From IMG/VR virus record IMGVR_UViG_2690316243_000005: a stretch of 16,415 bases of DNA, one strand, 5' to 3'. This document shows, in pieces, positions 7,990 through 14,479 of the stretch. The position numbers and the translations under genes were made by a program. Within the stretch, counting starts at the first letter, position 1, and each line of letters begins with the position of its first letter. The notes below the pieces were generated by a model that was not told where the DNA came from, ran no database searches, and worked only from the letters and a program-made list of their open reading frames with translations. Source of the DNA: a virus. Its lineage: Duplodnaviria; Heunggongvirae; Uroviricota; Caudoviricetes.

Positions 7990-10900
7990 ATGGGAAAAGG
8001 TGGCGGTAAGGCACACACGCCTCGTGAGGCGAAGGATAATCTCAAATCCACGCAGATGATGAGCGTGATTGATGCGATTGGTGAGGGACTGATAGAAGGT
8101 CCGGTGAAGGGACTGCAGAGTATCCTGGTGAACAAAACCCCGCTGACGGACACGGACGGTAATCCCGTGATACACGGTGTGACGGCGGTCTGACGCGCCG
8201 GGGAGCAGGAGCAGACACCACCGGAAGGCTTTGAGTCCTCCGGTGCTGAAACCGGACTGGGCGTGGAAGTGACGAAGGCAAAACCGGTGACGCGCACCAT
8301 TACGTCCGCGAACATTGACCGCCTGCGGGTTACCTTCGGGGTGCAGTCACTGGTGCAGACCACGTCAAAGGGTGACCGAAACCCGACATCCGTCCGCCTG
8401 CTGATTCAGTTACAGCGTAACGGTAACTGGGTGACAGAAAAGGATGTCACCATTAACGGCAAGACCACCTCGCAGTTTCTGGCGTCGGTGATTCTGGATA
8501 ATCTGCCTCCCCGTCCTTTTAACATCCGGATGGTCCGGGAGACAGCGGACAGCACCACGGACCAGCTGCAGAATAAGACGCTGTGGTCGTCATACACCGA
8601 AATCATCGATGTGAAACAGTGCTACCCGAACACGGCCATTGTGGGGCTGCAGGTGGATGCGGAGCAGTTCGGCGGCCAGCAGATGACGGTGAACTACCAT
8701 ATCCGCGGTCGCATCATCCAGGTGCCGTCAAACTATGACCCGGAAAAACGCACGTACAGTGGTATCTGGGACGGCAGCCTGAAACCGGCATACAGCAACA
8801 ATCCGGCCTGGTGTCTGTGGGACATGCTGACTCACCCGCGCTACGGCATGGGAAAACGTCTGGGGGCGGCGGATGTGGACAAGTGGGCGCTGTATGCCAT
8901 CGGGCAGTACTGCGACCAGACGGTCCCGGATGGTTTCGGGGAGACCGAGCCGCGGATGACCTTCAATGCGTACCTGGCACAACAGCGTAAGGCATGGGAC
9001 GTGCTCAGTGATTTCTGCTCGGCGATGCGCTGTATGCCGGTATGGAACGGCCAGACGCTGACGTTTGTTCAGGACCGCCCGTCGGATGTGGTGTGGCCGT
9101 ACACCAACAGCGATGTGGTGGTGGATGATAACGGCGTGGGTTTCCGCTACAGCTTCAGTGCCCTGAAGGACCGGCACACGGCGGTGGAGGTGAATTATAC
9201 CGACCCGCAGAACGGCTGGCAGACCTCCACGGAACTGGTGGAAGACCCGGAAGCCATACTGCGCTACGGACGCAACCTGCTGAAGATGGACGCGTTCGGC
9301 TGTACCAGCCGCGGTCAGGCCCACCGTGCCGGACTGTGGGTGATAAAGACCGAACTGCTGGAAACGCAGACGGTGGATTTCACGCTCGGGTCTCAGGGGC
9401 TGCGGCACACACCCGGTGACATCATTGAAATCTGTGATAACGACTATGCCGGGACCCTGACCGGCGGACGTGTCCTGTCCATTGATGCTGCCACCCGCAC
9501 TCTGACGCTGGACCGTGAAGTGACACTTCCGGAGACCGGTGCCGCCACGGTGAACCTGATTAACGGCAGCGGTAAGCCGGTGAGTGTGGACATCACCGAA
9601 CACCCCGCGCCGGACCGGATACAGGTCAGTACCCTGCCTGATGGTGTGGAGACATACGGGGTGTGGGGACTCTCCCTGCCGTCACTGCGCCGTCGCCTGT
9701 TCCGCTGTGTCTCCGTCCGGGAAAACACGGACGGCACCTTTGCCATCACGGCGGTGCAGCACGTACTGGAAAAAGAAGCCATCGTGGATAACGGTGCCCG
9801 CTTTGAGCCGCAGTCAGGTTCCCTGAACAGCGTCATCCCACCGGCAGTGCAGCACCTGACGGCCAGTATCTGGCGCAGGCGAAATGGGACACGCCGCGGG
9901 TGGTGAAGGGTGTGCGCTTCAGTCTGCGCCTGACCAGTGGTAAGGGAACGGATGCCAGACTGGTGACCACCGCCATCACCGCAGACACGGAGCACCGTTT
10001 CAGCGGCCTGCCGCTCGGGGAATACACCCTGACGGTGCGGGCGATAAACAGCTATGGCCAGCAGGGTGAACCTGCCACCACCACCTTCCGGATTGCCGCA
10101 CCGGCAGCACCGTCGCGGATTGAGCTGACGCCGGGCTATTTTCAGATAACCGCAACGCCGCATCTTGCCGTTTATGACCCGACGGTACAGTTTGAGTTCT
10201 GGTTCTCGGAAAAGCGGATTGCGGATATCAGGCAGGTTGAAACCAGCGCCCGCTATCTTGGCACGGCGCTGTACTGGATAGCCGCCAGTATCAATATCAG
10301 GCCGGGCCATGATTATTATTTTTACGTTCGCAGTGTGAACACCGTTGGCAAATCGGCATTCGTGGAGGCTGTCGGTCGGGCGAGCGATGATGCGGAAGGT
10401 TACCTGGATTTTTTCAAAGGAGAGATAGGGAAAACACATCTGGCTCAGGAGCTGTGGACGCAGATTGATAACGGTCAGCTTGCGCCTGACCTGGCTGAAA
10501 TCAGGACGTCCATTACGGATGTCAGCAATGAAATCACGCAGACTGTCAATAAGAAACTGAAAGACCAGAGTGCGGCAATCCAGCAGATACAGAAGGTTCA
10601 GGTTGATACAAATAATAATCTGAACAGCATGTGGGCTGTGAAGCTGCAACAGATGAAGGACGGACGCCTTTATATTGCGGGTATCGGTGCCGGTATTGAG
10701 AATACGCCAGCAGGAATGCAGAGTCAGGTGCTGCTGGCGGCAGACAGGATTGCGATGATTAATCCTGCGAATGGCAACACAAAGCCGATGTTTGTTGGTC
10801 AGGGCGATCAGATATTCATGAACGACGTGTTCCTGAAACGCCTGACGGCTCCCACCATTACCAGCGGCGGTAATCCTCCGGCATTTTCCCTGACACCTGG

Positions 10901-11441
10901 CGGACGGCTGACGGCGAAAAATGCCGATATCAGCGGTAACGTGAACGCGAACTCCGGGACGCTCAACAACGTCACGATTAATAAGAACTGTCGGGTTCTG
11001 GGAAAATTGTCCGCGAACCAGATTGAAGGCGATCTCGTTAAAACAGTGGGCAAACCTTTCCCACGGGACTCCCGGGCACCGGAGAGGTGGCCATCAGGGA
11101 CCATTACCGTCAGGGTTTATGACGATCAGCCGTTTGATCGGCAAATTGTTATTCCCGCGGTGGCGTTTCGCGGTGCTAAACATGAGTGGAAGAATAACAA
11201 TATTTATTCGTCATGCCGCCTGATAGTGAAGAAAAACGGTGCTGAAATTTATAACCGAACGACCCTGGATAATACGCTGATATATACGGGTGTTATTGAT
11301 ATGCCTGCCGGTCACGGTCACATGACGCTGGAGTTTTCTGTATCGGCATGGCTGGTAAATGGCTGGTATCCCACAGCAAGTATCAGCGATTTGCTGGTTG
11401 TGGTGATGAAGAAAGCCACTGCAGGCATCACGATTAGCTGA
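7990..11441 (+). pseudogene. J: Central tail fiber / host-specificity protein J, disrupted by an in-frame opal codon and a frame switch
   Basis: Three ORF-track pieces (7990..8193, 8263..9906 both frame 1; 9900..11441 frame 0) read as contiguous J-like protein, total ~1150 codons (lambda J 1132 aa). TGA at 8191-8193 sits inside conserved GVT.V-x-RAGEQEQTPPEGFESSG; frame changes near 9864. Confidence 0.85.
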
Positions 11442-11460
11442 ATTTTATAACCCAGATACG

Positions 11461-11484
11461 GGCACCAGAAATGGTGCCTTTTTT
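11461..11484 (+). terminator. Rho-independent terminator after J (copy 1)
   Basis: ggcacc / agaaat loop / ggtgcc followed by TTTTTT; the lom RBS follows. Confidence 0.6.
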
Positions 11485-11508
11485 ATTGCAGAAAAGCGAG
11501 AGGTAATT

Positions 11509-11553
11509 ATGCGTAAAGTTTGTGCAGCCATTTTGTCCGCAGCCATCTGTCTG
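11509..11553 (+). pseudogene. lom: lom 5' stub (first 15 codons, MRKVCAAILSAAICL) fused to the second J 3' copy
   Basis: Identical to the first 45 nt of lom at 12444 and 13880, with the same RBS gagagg; continues out of frame into J-derived sequence and stops at 11632-11634. Confidence 0.65.
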
Positions 11554-11563
11554 ACTGAACAGC

Positions 11564-12376
11564 ATGTGGGCTGTGAAGCTGCAACAGATGAAGGACGGAC
11601 GCCTTTATATTGCGGGTATCGGTGCCGGTATTGAGAATACGCCAGCAGGAATGCAGAGTCAGGTGCTGCTGGCGGCAGACAGGATTGCGATGATTAATCC
11701 TGCGAATGGCAACACAAAGCCGATGTTTGTTGGTCAGGGCGATCAGATATTCATGAACGACGTGTTCCTGAAACGCCTGACGGCTCCCACCATTACCAGC
11801 GGCGGTAATCCTCCGGCATTTTCCCTGACACCGGACGGAAAACTGACCGCTAAAAATGCAGATATCAGTGGCAGTGTGAATGCGAACGCCGGGACGCTCA
11901 ACAATGTCACAATTAATGAGAACTGTCAGATTAAGGGGAAACTGTCAGCCAACCAGATTGAAGGCGATATAGTCAAAACAGTGGGTAAGGCTTTTCCGCG
12001 GGACTCCCGGGCACCGGAGCGGTGGCCATCAGGGACCATTACCGTCAGGATTTATGACGATCAGCCTTTTGACAGGCAAATTGTTATTCCGGCGGTGGCA
12101 TTCAGCGGCGCTAAACATGAGCGGGAGAATAACGATATTTATTCGTCATGCCGCCTGATAGTACGGAAAAACGGTGCTGAAATTTATAACCGTACCGCGC
12201 TGGATAATACGCTGATTTACAGTGGTGTTATTGATATGCCAGCTGGTCGCGGCCACATGACGCTGGAGTTTTCGGTGTCAGCATGGCTGGTGAATAACTG
12301 GTATCCCACAGCAAGTATCAGCGATTTGCTGGTTGTGGTGATGAAGAAAGCCACCGCAGGCATCAGTATCAGCTGA
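11564..12376 (+). pseudogene. J: Orphan second copy of the J C-terminal (receptor-binding) region, 270 codons, no J upstream and no obvious RBS
   Basis: Track ORF 11564..12376 parallels the last 270 aa of J copy 1: first ~90 aa identical, then ~20 substitutions. Starts at an internal Met of J. Confidence 0.7.
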
Positions 12377-12395
12377 ATTTTATAACCCATATACG

Positions 12396-12419
12396 GGCGC
12401 CAGAAATGGCGCCTTTTTT
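12396..12419 (+). terminator. Rho-independent terminator after the orphan J 3' copy
   Basis: ggcgcc / agaaat / ggcgcc plus TTTTTT; differs from copy 1 by a compensatory pair in the stem. Confidence 0.6.
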
Positions 12420-12443
12420 ATTGCAGAAAAGCGAGAGGTAATT

Positions 12444-13043
12444 ATGCGTAAAGTTTGTGCAGCCATTTTGTCCGCAGCCATCTGTCTGGCCTTATCCGGT
12501 GCGCCTGCATGGGCGTCTGAACATCAGTCCACGCTGAGCGCCGGGTATCTTCAGACCCATACTGATATGCCAGGCAGCGATGACCTGAAGGGCATTAACG
12601 TGAAATACCGTTATGAGTTTACGGACACGCTGGGGCTGATTACGTCATTCAGTTATGCCAACGCTGAAGATGAGCAAAAAACGCATTACAGCGATACCCG
12701 CTGGCATGAGGATTCCGTGCGTAACCGCTGGTTCAGCGTGATGGCGGGGCCGTCTGTGCGCGTGAATGAATGGTTCAGCGCGTATGCGATGGCGGGCGTG
12801 GCTTACAGCCGTGTGTCGACCTTCTCCGGGGATTATCTCCGCGTAACTGACAACAAGGGGAAAACGCACGATGTGCTGACCGGAAGTGATGACGGTCGCC
12901 ACAGCAACACGTCTCTGGCGTGGGGGGCTGGCGTGCAGTTTAACCCGACCGAATCCGTGGCCATTGACCTTGCTTATGAAGGTTCCGGCAGTGGTGACTG
13001 GCGCACTGACGGTTTCATCGTGGGTGTCGGTTATAAGTTCTGA
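12444..13043 (+). CDS. lom: Lom outer-membrane protein, copy 1 (Ail/Lom/OmpX-family beta-barrel)
   Basis: 199-aa ORF; signal peptide with AWA|SE cleavage site; C-terminal aromatic residue (..GYKF); matches recalled lambda Lom along its length; own RBS and flanking terminators. Confidence 0.9.
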   Translation: MRKVCAAILSAAICLALSGAPAWASEHQSTLSAGYLQTHTDMPGSDDLKGINVKYRYEFTDTLGLITSFSYANAEDEQKTHYSDTRWHEDSVRNRWFSVMAGPSVRVNEWFSAYAMAGVAYSRVSTFSGDYLRVTDNKGKTHDVLTGSDDGRHSNTSLAWGAGVQFNPTESVAIDLAYEGSGSGDWRTDGFIVGVGYKF

Positions 13044-13070
13044 TTAGCCAGGTAACACAGTGTTATGACT

Positions 13071-13095
13071 GCCCGCTGGTTCAGGCGGGCTTTTT
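13071..13095 (+). terminator. Rho-independent terminator after lom copy 1
   Basis: gcccgc / 8-nt loop / gcgggc followed by TTTTT; resembles the lambda lom-stf intergenic arrangement. Confidence 0.6.
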
Positions 13096-13106
13096 GTGGG
13101 GTGAAT

Positions 13107-13418
13107 ATGGCAGTAAAGATTTCAGGTGTACTGAAAGATGGGGCGGGTAAACCTGTCGTAAATTGTGCGATTGAACTGCGGGCCAGAAGAACCAGTCCGA
13201 CCGTTGTGGCACACGTTGTTGCCACTTGCGTGACGGACAATAACGGTGCTTATGTGATTGAGGCTGAGCCGGGGTATTACGAGGTTGCGCTTCACTGTAA
13301 CGGCTGGCAGCCAACCCGTGTCGGGGATATTGATGTGGCACCGACTGATGCACCGGGGACACTGAACGCGTTTCTGAATGCACCAAAGGATGGTGATTTA
13401 CGTCCGGAGGTGATGAAG
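13107..13418 (+). pseudogene. stf: Side tail fiber N-terminal fragment, variant allele, truncated by the IS21 remnant
   Basis: MAVKISGVLKDGAGKPV.NC.I.L.ARR... parallels the start of the stf at 14631 but diverges after ~30 aa; the open frame runs into IS sequence and stops at 13433. Confidence 0.7.
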
Positions 13419-13736
13419 TGTCAGCGCCAGTGATATAAGACGGTAATTCGCCATTTGGATTGTCCGCTCCACCCAACATGTTGTTTCCTTAAGGTTCTCA
13501 CACCAGAAAGGACATCAACATGCTGAGCAGAGAGGACTTTTACATGATAAAGCAAATGCGCCAGCAGGGCGCGTACATCGTCGATATTGCGACTCAGATT
13601 GGTTGCTCTGAACGGACGGTCAGACGCTACCTCAAATACCCTGAACCGCCAGCCAGAAAGACCCGCCACAAAATGGTTAAGCTGAAACCGTTTATGGATT
13701 ACATCGACATGCGCCTGGCAGAGAATGTCTGGAAAA
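13419..13736 (+). mobile_element. IS21-family insertion sequence remnant (terminal repeat plus 5' end of istA, ~318 bp)
   Basis: Begins TGTCAG..., carries the N-terminal 72 aa of an IstA-type transposase; homology to the J 3' end resumes at 13737. Confidence 0.8.
13520..13735 (+). pseudogene. istA: Truncated IS21 transposase IstA (N-terminal helix-turn-helix region only)
   Basis: MLSREDFYMIKQMRQQGAYIVDIATQIGCSERTVRRYLKYPEPPARKTRHKMVKLKPFMDYIDMRLAENVW matches the recalled IS21 IstA N-terminus; the following 14 residues are J-derived out-of-frame sequence. Confidence 0.8.
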
Positions 13737-13812
13737 GTATCCCACAGCAAGTATCAGCGATTTGCTGGTTGTGGTGATGAAGAAAGCCACCGCAGGCATC
13801 AGTATCAGCTGA
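13737..13812 (+). pseudogene. J: Third copy of the extreme J 3' end (last ~24 codons plus stop)
   Basis: [24 protein letters not shown] matches copy 2 (ISIS ending, not ITIS of copy 1); offset 1436 from copy 2. Confidence 0.7.
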
Positions 13813-13831
13813 ATTTTATAACCCATATACG

Positions 13832-13855
13832 GGCGCCAGAAATGGCGCCTTTTTT
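13832..13855 (+). terminator. Rho-independent terminator before lom copy 2
   Basis: Same ggcgcc / agaaat / ggcgcc + TTTTTT hairpin as at 12396-12419. Confidence 0.6.
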
Positions 13856-13879
13856 ATTGCAGAAAAGCGAGAGGTAATT

Positions 13880-14479
13880 ATGCGTAAAGTTTGTGCAGCC
13901 ATTTTGTCCGCAGCCATCTGTCTGTCCGTATCCGGTGCGCCTGCATGGGCGTCTGAACATCAGTCCACACTGAGCGCGGGGTATCTTCATGCCCGTACGA
14001 ACGCTCCCGGCAGCGATAATCTGAACGGGATTAACGTGAAATACCGTTATGAGTTTACGGACGCGCTGGGGCTGATTACGTCCTTCAGTTATGCCAATGC
14101 TGAGGATGAGCAAAAAACGCACTACAGCGATACCCGCTGGCATGAAGATTCCGTGCGTAACCGCTGGTTCAGCGTGATGGCGGGGCCGTCTGTACGCGTG
14201 AATGAATGGTTCAGCGCGTATGCGATGGTGGGTGTGGCTTACAGCCGTGTGTCGACTTTCTCCGGGGATTATCTCCGCGTAACTGACAACAAGGGGAAAA
14301 CGCACGATGTGCTGACCGGAAGTGATGACGGTCGCCACAGCAACACGTCTCTGGCGTGGGGGGCTGGCGTGCAGTTTAACCCGACCGAATCCGTGACCAT
14401 TGACCTTGCTTATGAAGGTTCCGGTAGTGGTGACTGGCGAACGGATGCATTTATTGTTGGTATCGGATACCGTATCTGA
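13880..14479 (+). CDS. lom: Lom outer-membrane protein, copy 2 (diverged paralog)
   Basis: 199-aa ORF with the same signal peptide and barrel signature; differs from copy 1 mainly in the signal peptide, residues ~36-49 and the C-terminus (GIGYRI). Confidence 0.9.
   Translation: MRKVCAAILSAAICLSVSGAPAWASEHQSTLSAGYLHARTNAPGSDNLNGINVKYRYEFTDALGLITSFSYANAEDEQKTHYSDTRWHEDSVRNRWFSVMAGPSVRVNEWFSAYAMVGVAYSRVSTFSGDYLRVTDNKGKTHDVLTGSDDGRHSNTSLAWGAGVQFNPTESVTIDLAYEGSGSGDWRTDAFIVGIGYRI

What the first reader, a model, noticed from the sequence alone, without database searches (positions are those of the whole stretch)
8191..8193. In-frame opal codon inside conserved J sequence, in a UGA-C context
The J frame is continuous from 7990 to 9906 except for one TGA at 8191-8193, flanked on both sides by conserved J sequence (..IHGVTAV * RAGEQEQTPPEGFESSG..); my recollection of lambda has Phe at this position. 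The next base is C, and UGA-C has been reported as a weak termination context in E. coli, so some readthrough is conceivable. Alternatives are a true inactivating mutation in a decaying prophage or a sequencing error.
Basis: partly seen in the sequence, partly recalled or inferred. Interest (0 to 1): 0.45.

Follow-up and report, generated by a model that had tools for sequence, protein, structure and literature searches.

The report
Nonsense mutation in dead prophage J gene
The in-frame TGA is real, but it is an ordinary inactivating Trp-to-stop mutation, fixed in Shigella sonnei, in a tail-tip gene (J) that also carries a 22-base frameshifting deletion and sits in a prophage remnant without head genes, so it is not a recoding signal.

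Summary
In detail: TGA at 8191-8193, next base C, interrupts the J (tail tip attachment protein) frame at codon 68. It is a single G>A change at 8193 from TGG (Trp), the codon in the closest intact J genes; lambda has TTC (Phe). It is not a sequencing error. All 20 related loci fetched carry it, among them S. sonnei 53G and eight other contigs of 4.5-5.0 Mb, and the exact 67-aa product is recorded on 551 contigs. No complete E. coli genome has the TGA 43-mer (0 places), while the TGG version occurs at 3,622 places in 1,262 genomes. A 22-bp deletion between two 7-bp direct repeats (CTGACGG; retained copy 9856-9862) shifts the frame, which is why the "J frame" ends at 9906 while J sequence continues to 11441. 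Undoing both lesions restores a 1157-codon ORF 97.5% identical to an intact E. coli J. In the complete genomes an IS21 replaces the head genes upstream of Z. UGA-C is a documented weak terminator, and tRNA-Trp misreading would restore the ancestral Trp. But a readthrough product would end at 9906 without the receptor-binding half. Verdict: an ordinary pseudogene lesion of low interest.

The parts
7990..11441 (+). J (tail tip attachment / host specificity protein) pseudogene, split into three ORFs: 7990-8193 (67 aa), 8263-9906 (547 aa) and 9900-11441 (513 aa)
   Evidence: Translations. Pfam hits FNIII-A_GpJ, Phage-tail_3, Ig_J, Ig_J_second, Phage_Tail_Tip and Ig_GpJ_C. With both lesions undone it gives a 1157-codon ORF, 97.5% identical to the intact Z1002 gpJ.
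8191..8193 (+). Premature opal codon (codon 68), TGG(Trp)->TGA by G>A at 8193; the +4 base is C
   Evidence: Present in all 20 S. sonnei loci fetched. The TGA 43-mer has 0 places in 5,426 E. coli genomes; the TGG 43-mer has 3,622 places.
8090..8090 (+). C>T substitution (Pro34->Leu in the EGPIEGP motif), specific to a sub-lineage
   Evidence: T in L002-L011 and L017, C in the other nine draft loci L012-L016 and L018-L021, and all of them have the TGA.
9856..9862 (+). Retained copy of the 7-bp direct repeat CTGACGG, marking a 22-bp deletion (CTGACGGTGGAGGTGAGCGCAA lost) that shifts the J frame
   Evidence: Alignments to ATCC 25922 and Z1002 J. All 25 listed E. coli matches span 1023 bp against 1001 query bases. 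The junction is identical in all 20 S. sonnei loci. No E. coli genome covers the whole junction. The deletion lies inside the Pfam Ig_J domain.
9904..9906 (+). Out-of-frame stop that ends the original J frame after the deletion; this is where any readthrough product would end (638 aa)
1..34 (.). Probable outer end of the IS21 copy that replaces the head genes upstream of Z (the contig ends inside the repeat)
   Evidence: Window 1-34 is an exact inverted copy of 13419-13452. It maps next to istA/istB in S. sonnei 53G. The exact boundary position is inferred.

Best explanation
The TGA is a fixed loss-of-function (nonsense) mutation in the J gene of a defective lambdoid prophage of Shigella sonnei. 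A single G>A transition changed Trp68 (TGG) to opal. Release factor 2 ends translation after 67 residues, before any recognisable J domain. The same gene also lost 22 bp by slippage between two CTGACGG repeats, which shifts the frame at codon 623, so J is dead twice over. The prophage itself has lost its head genes to an IS21 insertion and cannot make virions, so J is under no selection and decays neutrally. Shown: the ancestral codon, the second lesion, its fixation across strains, and the IS21 upstream. Inferred: termination by RF2, neutrality, and the slippage mechanism. A small amount of UGA-C readthrough by tRNA-Trp is chemically plausible and would reinsert the original Trp. It could only yield a 638-residue N-terminal fragment ending at 9906, without the Ig-like, tail-tip and receptor-binding domains.
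For: TGA confirmed. The closest intact J genes have TGG at this codon; ATCC 25922 differs at only 2 of 511 bases, one of them 8193. The TGG 43-mer is found at 3,622 places in 1,262 E. coli genomes, the TGA 43-mer at none. All 20 S. sonnei loci carry both the TGA and the identical 22-bp deletion junction; they include 53G (HE616528.1), eight other contigs of 4.5-5.0 Mb and 11 draft assemblies (53G identified in PMC5447701). The exact 67-aa product is on 551 contigs and sources name it as S. sonnei. The deletion is flanked by a 7-bp direct repeat. Undoing the two lesions gives an uninterrupted 1157-codon ORF 97.5% identical to intact Z1002 J, so there are exactly two lesions. Upstream of Z lie IS21 istA/istB and an IS3-family element, with no head genes. 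Individual strains show further lesions: I split in L007, tape measure split in L009, IS in the tail fibre gene in L008 and L011, and a shorter J fragment in L010. The RNA downstream of the TGA folds no better than shuffles (z = -1.1), and no Rfam family reaches its gathering score.
Against: The ten tail genes upstream (Z, U, V, G, T, H, M, L, K, I) are still intact ORFs in the window, so decay is recent and incomplete. Expression was not measured, so trace readthrough or expression of fragments cannot be excluded. The order of the two lesions is unknown: no locus with only one of them was found.
Confidence: 0.93

Rival explanations
1. Leaky or programmed readthrough: the weak UGA-C signal is read by tRNA-Trp often enough to give a biologically used J product.
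For: +4C, especially after UGA, is documented as an inefficient termination context in bacteria, and tRNA-Trp misreads UGA in E. coli (PMC5289835). Trp is the ancestral residue, so readthrough would restore the wild-type residue.
Against: A readthrough ribosome meets the 22-bp frameshift and stops at 9906, so the C-terminal 520 or so residues, including the receptor-binding domain, are lost. The stop is absent from all E. coli relatives. There is no unusual downstream structure. The prophage lacks head genes.
Confidence: 0.02
2. Sequencing or assembly error: the true codon is a sense codon.
For: The window is a short-read draft contig whose 3' third looks chimeric.
Against: The same TGA is in all 20 related loci fetched, including nine contigs of 4.5-5.0 Mb. 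The exact 67-aa product is on 551 contigs. From 7601 to 10600 the window differs from eight of those long contigs at only 3-6 positions.
Confidence: 0.005
3. Exaptation: one or more J fragments (67 aa, 547 aa, about 510 aa) are expressed on their own and serve the host, for example a free receptor-binding domain that blocks superinfection.
For: All three fragments are kept as open frames in most of the fetched strains. The third ORF has its own GTG start and holds the whole tail-tip and receptor-binding part.
Against: S. sonnei is too clonal for retention to indicate selection. L010 already has a further change in the middle fragment. No promoter, expression or function evidence was obtained.
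Confidence: 0.03
4. Selenocysteine or another reassignment of UGA.
For: None beyond the presence of an in-frame UGA.
Against: The ancestral codon is TGG, not a Cys or Sec codon. No significant hairpin follows the UGA. TGA ends another gene in the same window, G at 2294-2296.
Confidence: 0.002

Closest known systems
Phage lambda gpJ (tip attachment / host specificity protein; NP_040600.1) and its E. coli prophage orthologues (WP_086352851.1 of strain Z1002; WP_016265923.1 of ATCC 25922)
   Same: Same gene order (Z-U-V-G-T-H-M-L-K-I-J-lom-tail fibre), same Pfam domain series, and a near-identical N-terminus. The restored ORF is 97.5% identical to Z1002 J.
   Different: Here the gene is broken by a nonsense codon at residue 68 and by a 22-bp frameshifting deletion at codons 623-630. 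Lambda has Phe where this lineage had Trp.
Pseudogenes and IS-disrupted prophage remnants of Shigella genomes
   Same: A point nonsense mutation, a small repeat-mediated deletion and IS insertions in a non-essential mobile element, fixed in a clonal pathogen. That Shigella genomes are rich in pseudogenes and IS elements is general knowledge, not tested here.
   Different: Nothing distinctive.
Programmed UGA readthrough (e.g. phage Q-beta coat/A1 extension) and the UGA-C site of prfB autoregulation
   Same: Same stop codon and, for prfB, the same +4 C, a weak termination signal (PMC5289835).
   Different: Those sites are conserved and lead into an intact functional downstream frame. This one is lineage-specific, recently derived from TGG, and followed by a frameshift.

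Membership tests
Lambda-type J (tip attachment protein) gene | J domain series (FNIII-A_GpJ, Phage-tail_3, Ig_J, Ig_J_second, Phage_Tail_Tip, Ig_GpJ_C) | tested here: met
   Pfam scan of the fragments, E-values 4e-23 to 4e-42
Lambda-type J (tip attachment protein) gene | Position after tail genes L, K, I and before lom and the tail fibre gene | tested here: met
   Gene tables of the window (L017) and of related loci
Lambda-type J (tip attachment protein) gene | One uninterrupted ORF of about 1130-1230 codons | tested here: not met
   Stop at codon 68 and a frameshift at codon 623; it is a pseudogene of this family
Pseudogene in a defective prophage | Closest intact homologues carry a sense codon at the site | tested here: met
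   TGG in ATCC 25922 and Z1002. The TGG 43-mer is at 3,622 E. coli places, the TGA 43-mer at 0.
Pseudogene in a defective prophage | Additional independent disabling lesions in the gene or the element | tested here: met
   22-bp deletion; IS21 in place of the head genes; strain-specific breaks in I, H, the tail fibre gene and J
Pseudogene in a defective prophage | The lesion is heritable, i.e. reproduced in independent assemblies of the lineage | tested here: met
   20 of 20 loci; 551 contigs carry the exact 67-aa product
Programmed stop-codon readthrough | The stop codon is conserved among homologues | tested here: not met
Programmed stop-codon readthrough | An intact downstream frame that encodes a functional extension | tested here: not met
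   The frame ends at 9906 because of the 22-bp deletion
Programmed stop-codon readthrough | Weak termination context | tested here: met
   UGA followed by C; the weakness of this context is taken from PMC5289835
Programmed stop-codon readthrough | Measured readthrough product | not testable with these tools
   Needs a reporter assay or proteomics
Selenocysteine insertion (bacterial SECIS) | Stable hairpin immediately 3' of the UGA | tested here: not met
   Fold of 8185-8260: z = -1.1, and 28 of 200 shuffles fold as well. No Rfam hit at gathering score.

The most novel reading that the evidence does not exclude
The tail genes Z to I upstream are still intact. Trace tRNA-Trp readthrough of UGA-C would restore Trp68 and yield a 638-residue N-terminal J fragment. 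Alternatively, the separately initiated C-terminal fragment might be made. Either product could be used by S. sonnei, for example for receptor masking or in a tail-like particle.
Probability: 0.02. Interest if true: 0.3.

Novelty: already known. Interest (0 to 1): 0.05.

Why it matters
It matters little. It is one of many pseudogene lesions in the IS-ridden prophage remnants of Shigella sonnei. Its practical uses are for annotation and typing. The three 'host specificity protein' ORFs should be annotated as one J pseudogene. The TGA, the 22-bp deletion and the 8090 C/T site could serve as lineage markers. The case also shows that an apparent recoding site should be checked for further lesions downstream before readthrough is proposed.

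Tried and rejected
An exact-pattern scan of the GTDB species representatives for the TGA context found nothing; no fetched or matched record outside the look-up collection was S. sonnei, so the source was found through the exact-protein look-up instead. The 43-mer across the deletion junction gave only partial hits (query 12-43), because the retained repeat lets the right flank seed alone. I therefore read it as 'no full-length junction in E. coli', not as a clean zero. Rfam gave no hit at gathering score and only sub-threshold chance-level hits at E<=1. SECIS or a stimulatory structure was rejected. I considered dN/dS between the window's J and intact J genes and did not compute it, because the differences mostly predate the lesions and the gene is mosaic. 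I looked in two papers for a named sRNA in the I-J spacer (AgvB/AsxR and the Pas sRNAs), but no sequences or coordinates were available to test identity.

Full report
OBSERVATION. The window has ATG at 7990 opening a frame that reads MGKGGGKAHTPREAKDNLKST..IHGVTAV, then TGA at 8191-8193, then RAGEQEQTPPEGFESSG... The base after the stop is C. That frame has no other stop until 9904-9906. The description is therefore correct.

WHAT THE CODON WAS. The first 511 bases of the gene match 6,164 places in 1,889 complete E. coli genomes, nearly all annotated as gpJ. The best matches, such as ATCC 25922, differ at only two bases: 8090 (C in the relative, T here) and 8193 (G in the relative, A here). 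The relative reads ..GVTAVWRAGEQ... A second intact orthologue of exactly matching length (E. coli Z1002 gpJ, 3474 nt) also has TGG. The stop is therefore TGG (Trp68) changed to TGA by one G>A transition. I also searched a 43-mer centred on the codon, so that every 28-base seed contains position 8193. The TGA version finds nothing in 5,426 E. coli genomes. The TGG version finds 3,622 places in 1,262 genomes.

REAL, NOT AN ERROR. Exact look-up of the 67-aa product and of the 547-aa ORF that follows it identified the window as the whole contig CXCY01000103.1 of assembly GCA_001258795.1 (L017). It also returned 19 further loci, including HE616528.1, which is Shigella sonnei 53G (PMC5447701), and eight other contigs of 4.5-5.0 Mb. 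All 20 carry the TGA. The exact 67-aa sequence is recorded on 551 contigs and sources name it as S. sonnei. From 7601 to 10600 the window differs from eight of the nine long contigs at only 3-6 positions.

J-homologous sequence does not end at 9906. It continues in another frame to 11441. Alignment to intact J genes shows that 22 bp (CTGACGGTGGAGGTGAGCGCAA) are missing at 9862|9863. In the intact gene this stretch lies between two copies of CTGACGG, and one copy remains at 9856-9862. That is the signature of slippage between short direct repeats; the mechanism is inferred. All 25 listed E. coli matches of the 1001-base query 9400-10400 span 1023 bases, and no E. coli genome covers the whole junction. 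All 20 S. sonnei loci have the identical junction. The deletion falls inside the Pfam Ig_J domain, and the stop at codon 68 lies upstream of every Pfam-defined J domain. Changing A8193 back to G and reinserting the 22 bp gives an uninterrupted 1157-codon ORF that is 97.5% identical to Z1002 J, both for the window and for 53G. These are therefore the only two disabling lesions.

CONTEXT. The window holds a lambda-type tail module in the order Z, U, V, G, T, H, M, L, K, I, J, lom, tail fibre. In the complete S. sonnei genomes the DNA just upstream of Z is an IS21 (istA/istB) followed by an IS3-family element, where the head genes would be. Window 1-34 appears to be the end of that IS21. Individual strains show further damage: I split in L007, the tape measure gene split in L009, an IS in the tail fibre gene in L008 and L011, and a shorter middle J fragment in L010. 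This is a prophage remnant in ongoing decay.

MECHANISM. The best-supported reading is plain loss of function: translation stops after 67 residues. By coincidence such misreading would reinsert the ancestral Trp. Any ribosome that reads through still meets the frameshift and stops at 9906. That would give a 638-residue fragment without the second Ig-like domain, the tail-tip domain and the C-terminal receptor-binding domain. Nothing else suggests programmed recoding. The stop is not conserved. The 76 nt from 8185 fold no better than shuffles (z = -1.1). No Rfam family reaches its gathering score anywhere in the window. TGA is used as an ordinary stop nearby, at the end of G (2294-2296).

COMPARISON AND NOVELTY. 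The gene is a pseudogene member of the lambda J family: domains and synteny are met, the intact ORF is not. It meets every test I could apply for a pseudogene in a defective prophage. It fails the defining tests for programmed readthrough (conservation, functional downstream frame) and for selenocysteine insertion. Public annotation already lists the pieces as separate 'host specificity protein J' ORFs of S. sonnei. I rate it as already known in kind and of low interest.

CAVEATS. Expression was not measured. The order of the two lesions is unresolved. The 43-mer tests miss sites that have another SNP within about 15 bases. The 3' third of the contig looks chimeric, but this does not touch the region of the finding.

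SIDE OBSERVATIONS.
- The contig's 3' part is odd. 10620-11553 and 11555-12488 are 92% identical tandem copies of the J 3' end, and a J 3' end plus lom unit occurs again at 13737-14439.
- A 319-bp inverted piece of the IS21 region lies at 13419-13737.
- Of the 83 mismatches to 53G over 1-11553, 74 fall in 10898-11475.
- The exact 513-aa product of 9900-11441 exists on no other contig. Together these points suggest assembly through paralogous repeats.
- The G/T pair has the lambda-type slippery heptamer G GGA AAG at 2272-2278, in the right frames for a -1 shift into T.
- The 343-nt I-J spacer is almost invariant among otherwise 93-97% identical prophages. It is present in 1,662 E. coli genomes and none of the eight listed matches has an annotated feature under it.
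- That spacer contains a very stable hairpin (z = -5.15) and a minus-strand promoter-like and terminator-like pair, so it could encode a small RNA. I could not match it to any named sRNA.

Noticed in passing
window 7647-7989 (I-J spacer): The 343-nt AT-rich spacer (lambda has about 60 nt) differs at 1 of 356 aligned columns among the window, S. sonnei 53G, ATCC 25922 and Z1002, whose flanking genes differ by 3-7%. It occurs in 1,662 of 5,426 E. coli genomes, and none of the eight listed matches has an annotated feature under it. It holds a strong hairpin at 7852-7892 (z = -5.15) flanked by A- and T-runs. It also has a minus-strand promoter-like site (7784..7757, 11 of 12 matches) and a terminator-like site (7678..7662 plus a T-run), which could bound a small RNA of about 100 nt. 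There is no Rfam hit at gathering score. A link to the prophage Pas sRNAs could not be tested.
   Followed up: partly
window 10620-13737: The 3' part of the contig looks chimeric. 10620-11553 and 11555-12488 are tandem copies at 92% identity. A J 3' end plus lom unit is repeated at 12301-13003 and 13737-14439. A tail fibre N-terminal ORF (13065-13433) runs into an inverted 319-bp piece of the IS21 region (13419-13737), which then joins J 3' sequence abruptly. Mismatches to 53G cluster in 10898-11475, and the 513-aa product of 9900-11441 is found on this contig only. This is probably short-read assembly through paralogous prophage repeats.
   Followed up: partly
window 2272-2278: The lambda-type slippery heptamer G GGA AAG lies near the end of G (1865-2296), and a -1 shift there enters the frame of T (2323-2736). 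This is the known programmed frameshift that makes the G-T tail assembly chaperone, and it appears intact here (frames worked out from the coordinates).
   Followed up: partly
window 1-34 and 13419-13452; L003 772-2045: An exact 34-bp inverted repeat links the contig start to an internal site. It corresponds to the end of an IS21 copy (istA/istB) that abuts the Z gene in complete S. sonnei genomes, where the prophage head genes would be.
   Followed up: partly
window 8090: A C>T change (Pro34->Leu in the conserved EGPIEGP motif of J) separates the ten loci L002-L011 (nine contigs of 4.5-5.0 Mb and one 131-kb draft contig) plus this contig (T) from the nine other draft S. sonnei loci (C). It arose after the TGA and could serve as a lineage marker.
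   Followed up: yes
L007, L008, L009, L010, L011 (related S. sonnei loci): The same prophage remnant carries strain-specific further damage: I split into 113 + 80 aa (L007), the tape measure gene split into 428 + 385 aa (L009), an IS3-family transposase inside the tail fibre gene (L008, L011), and a shorter middle J fragment of 503 aa (L010).
   Followed up: no
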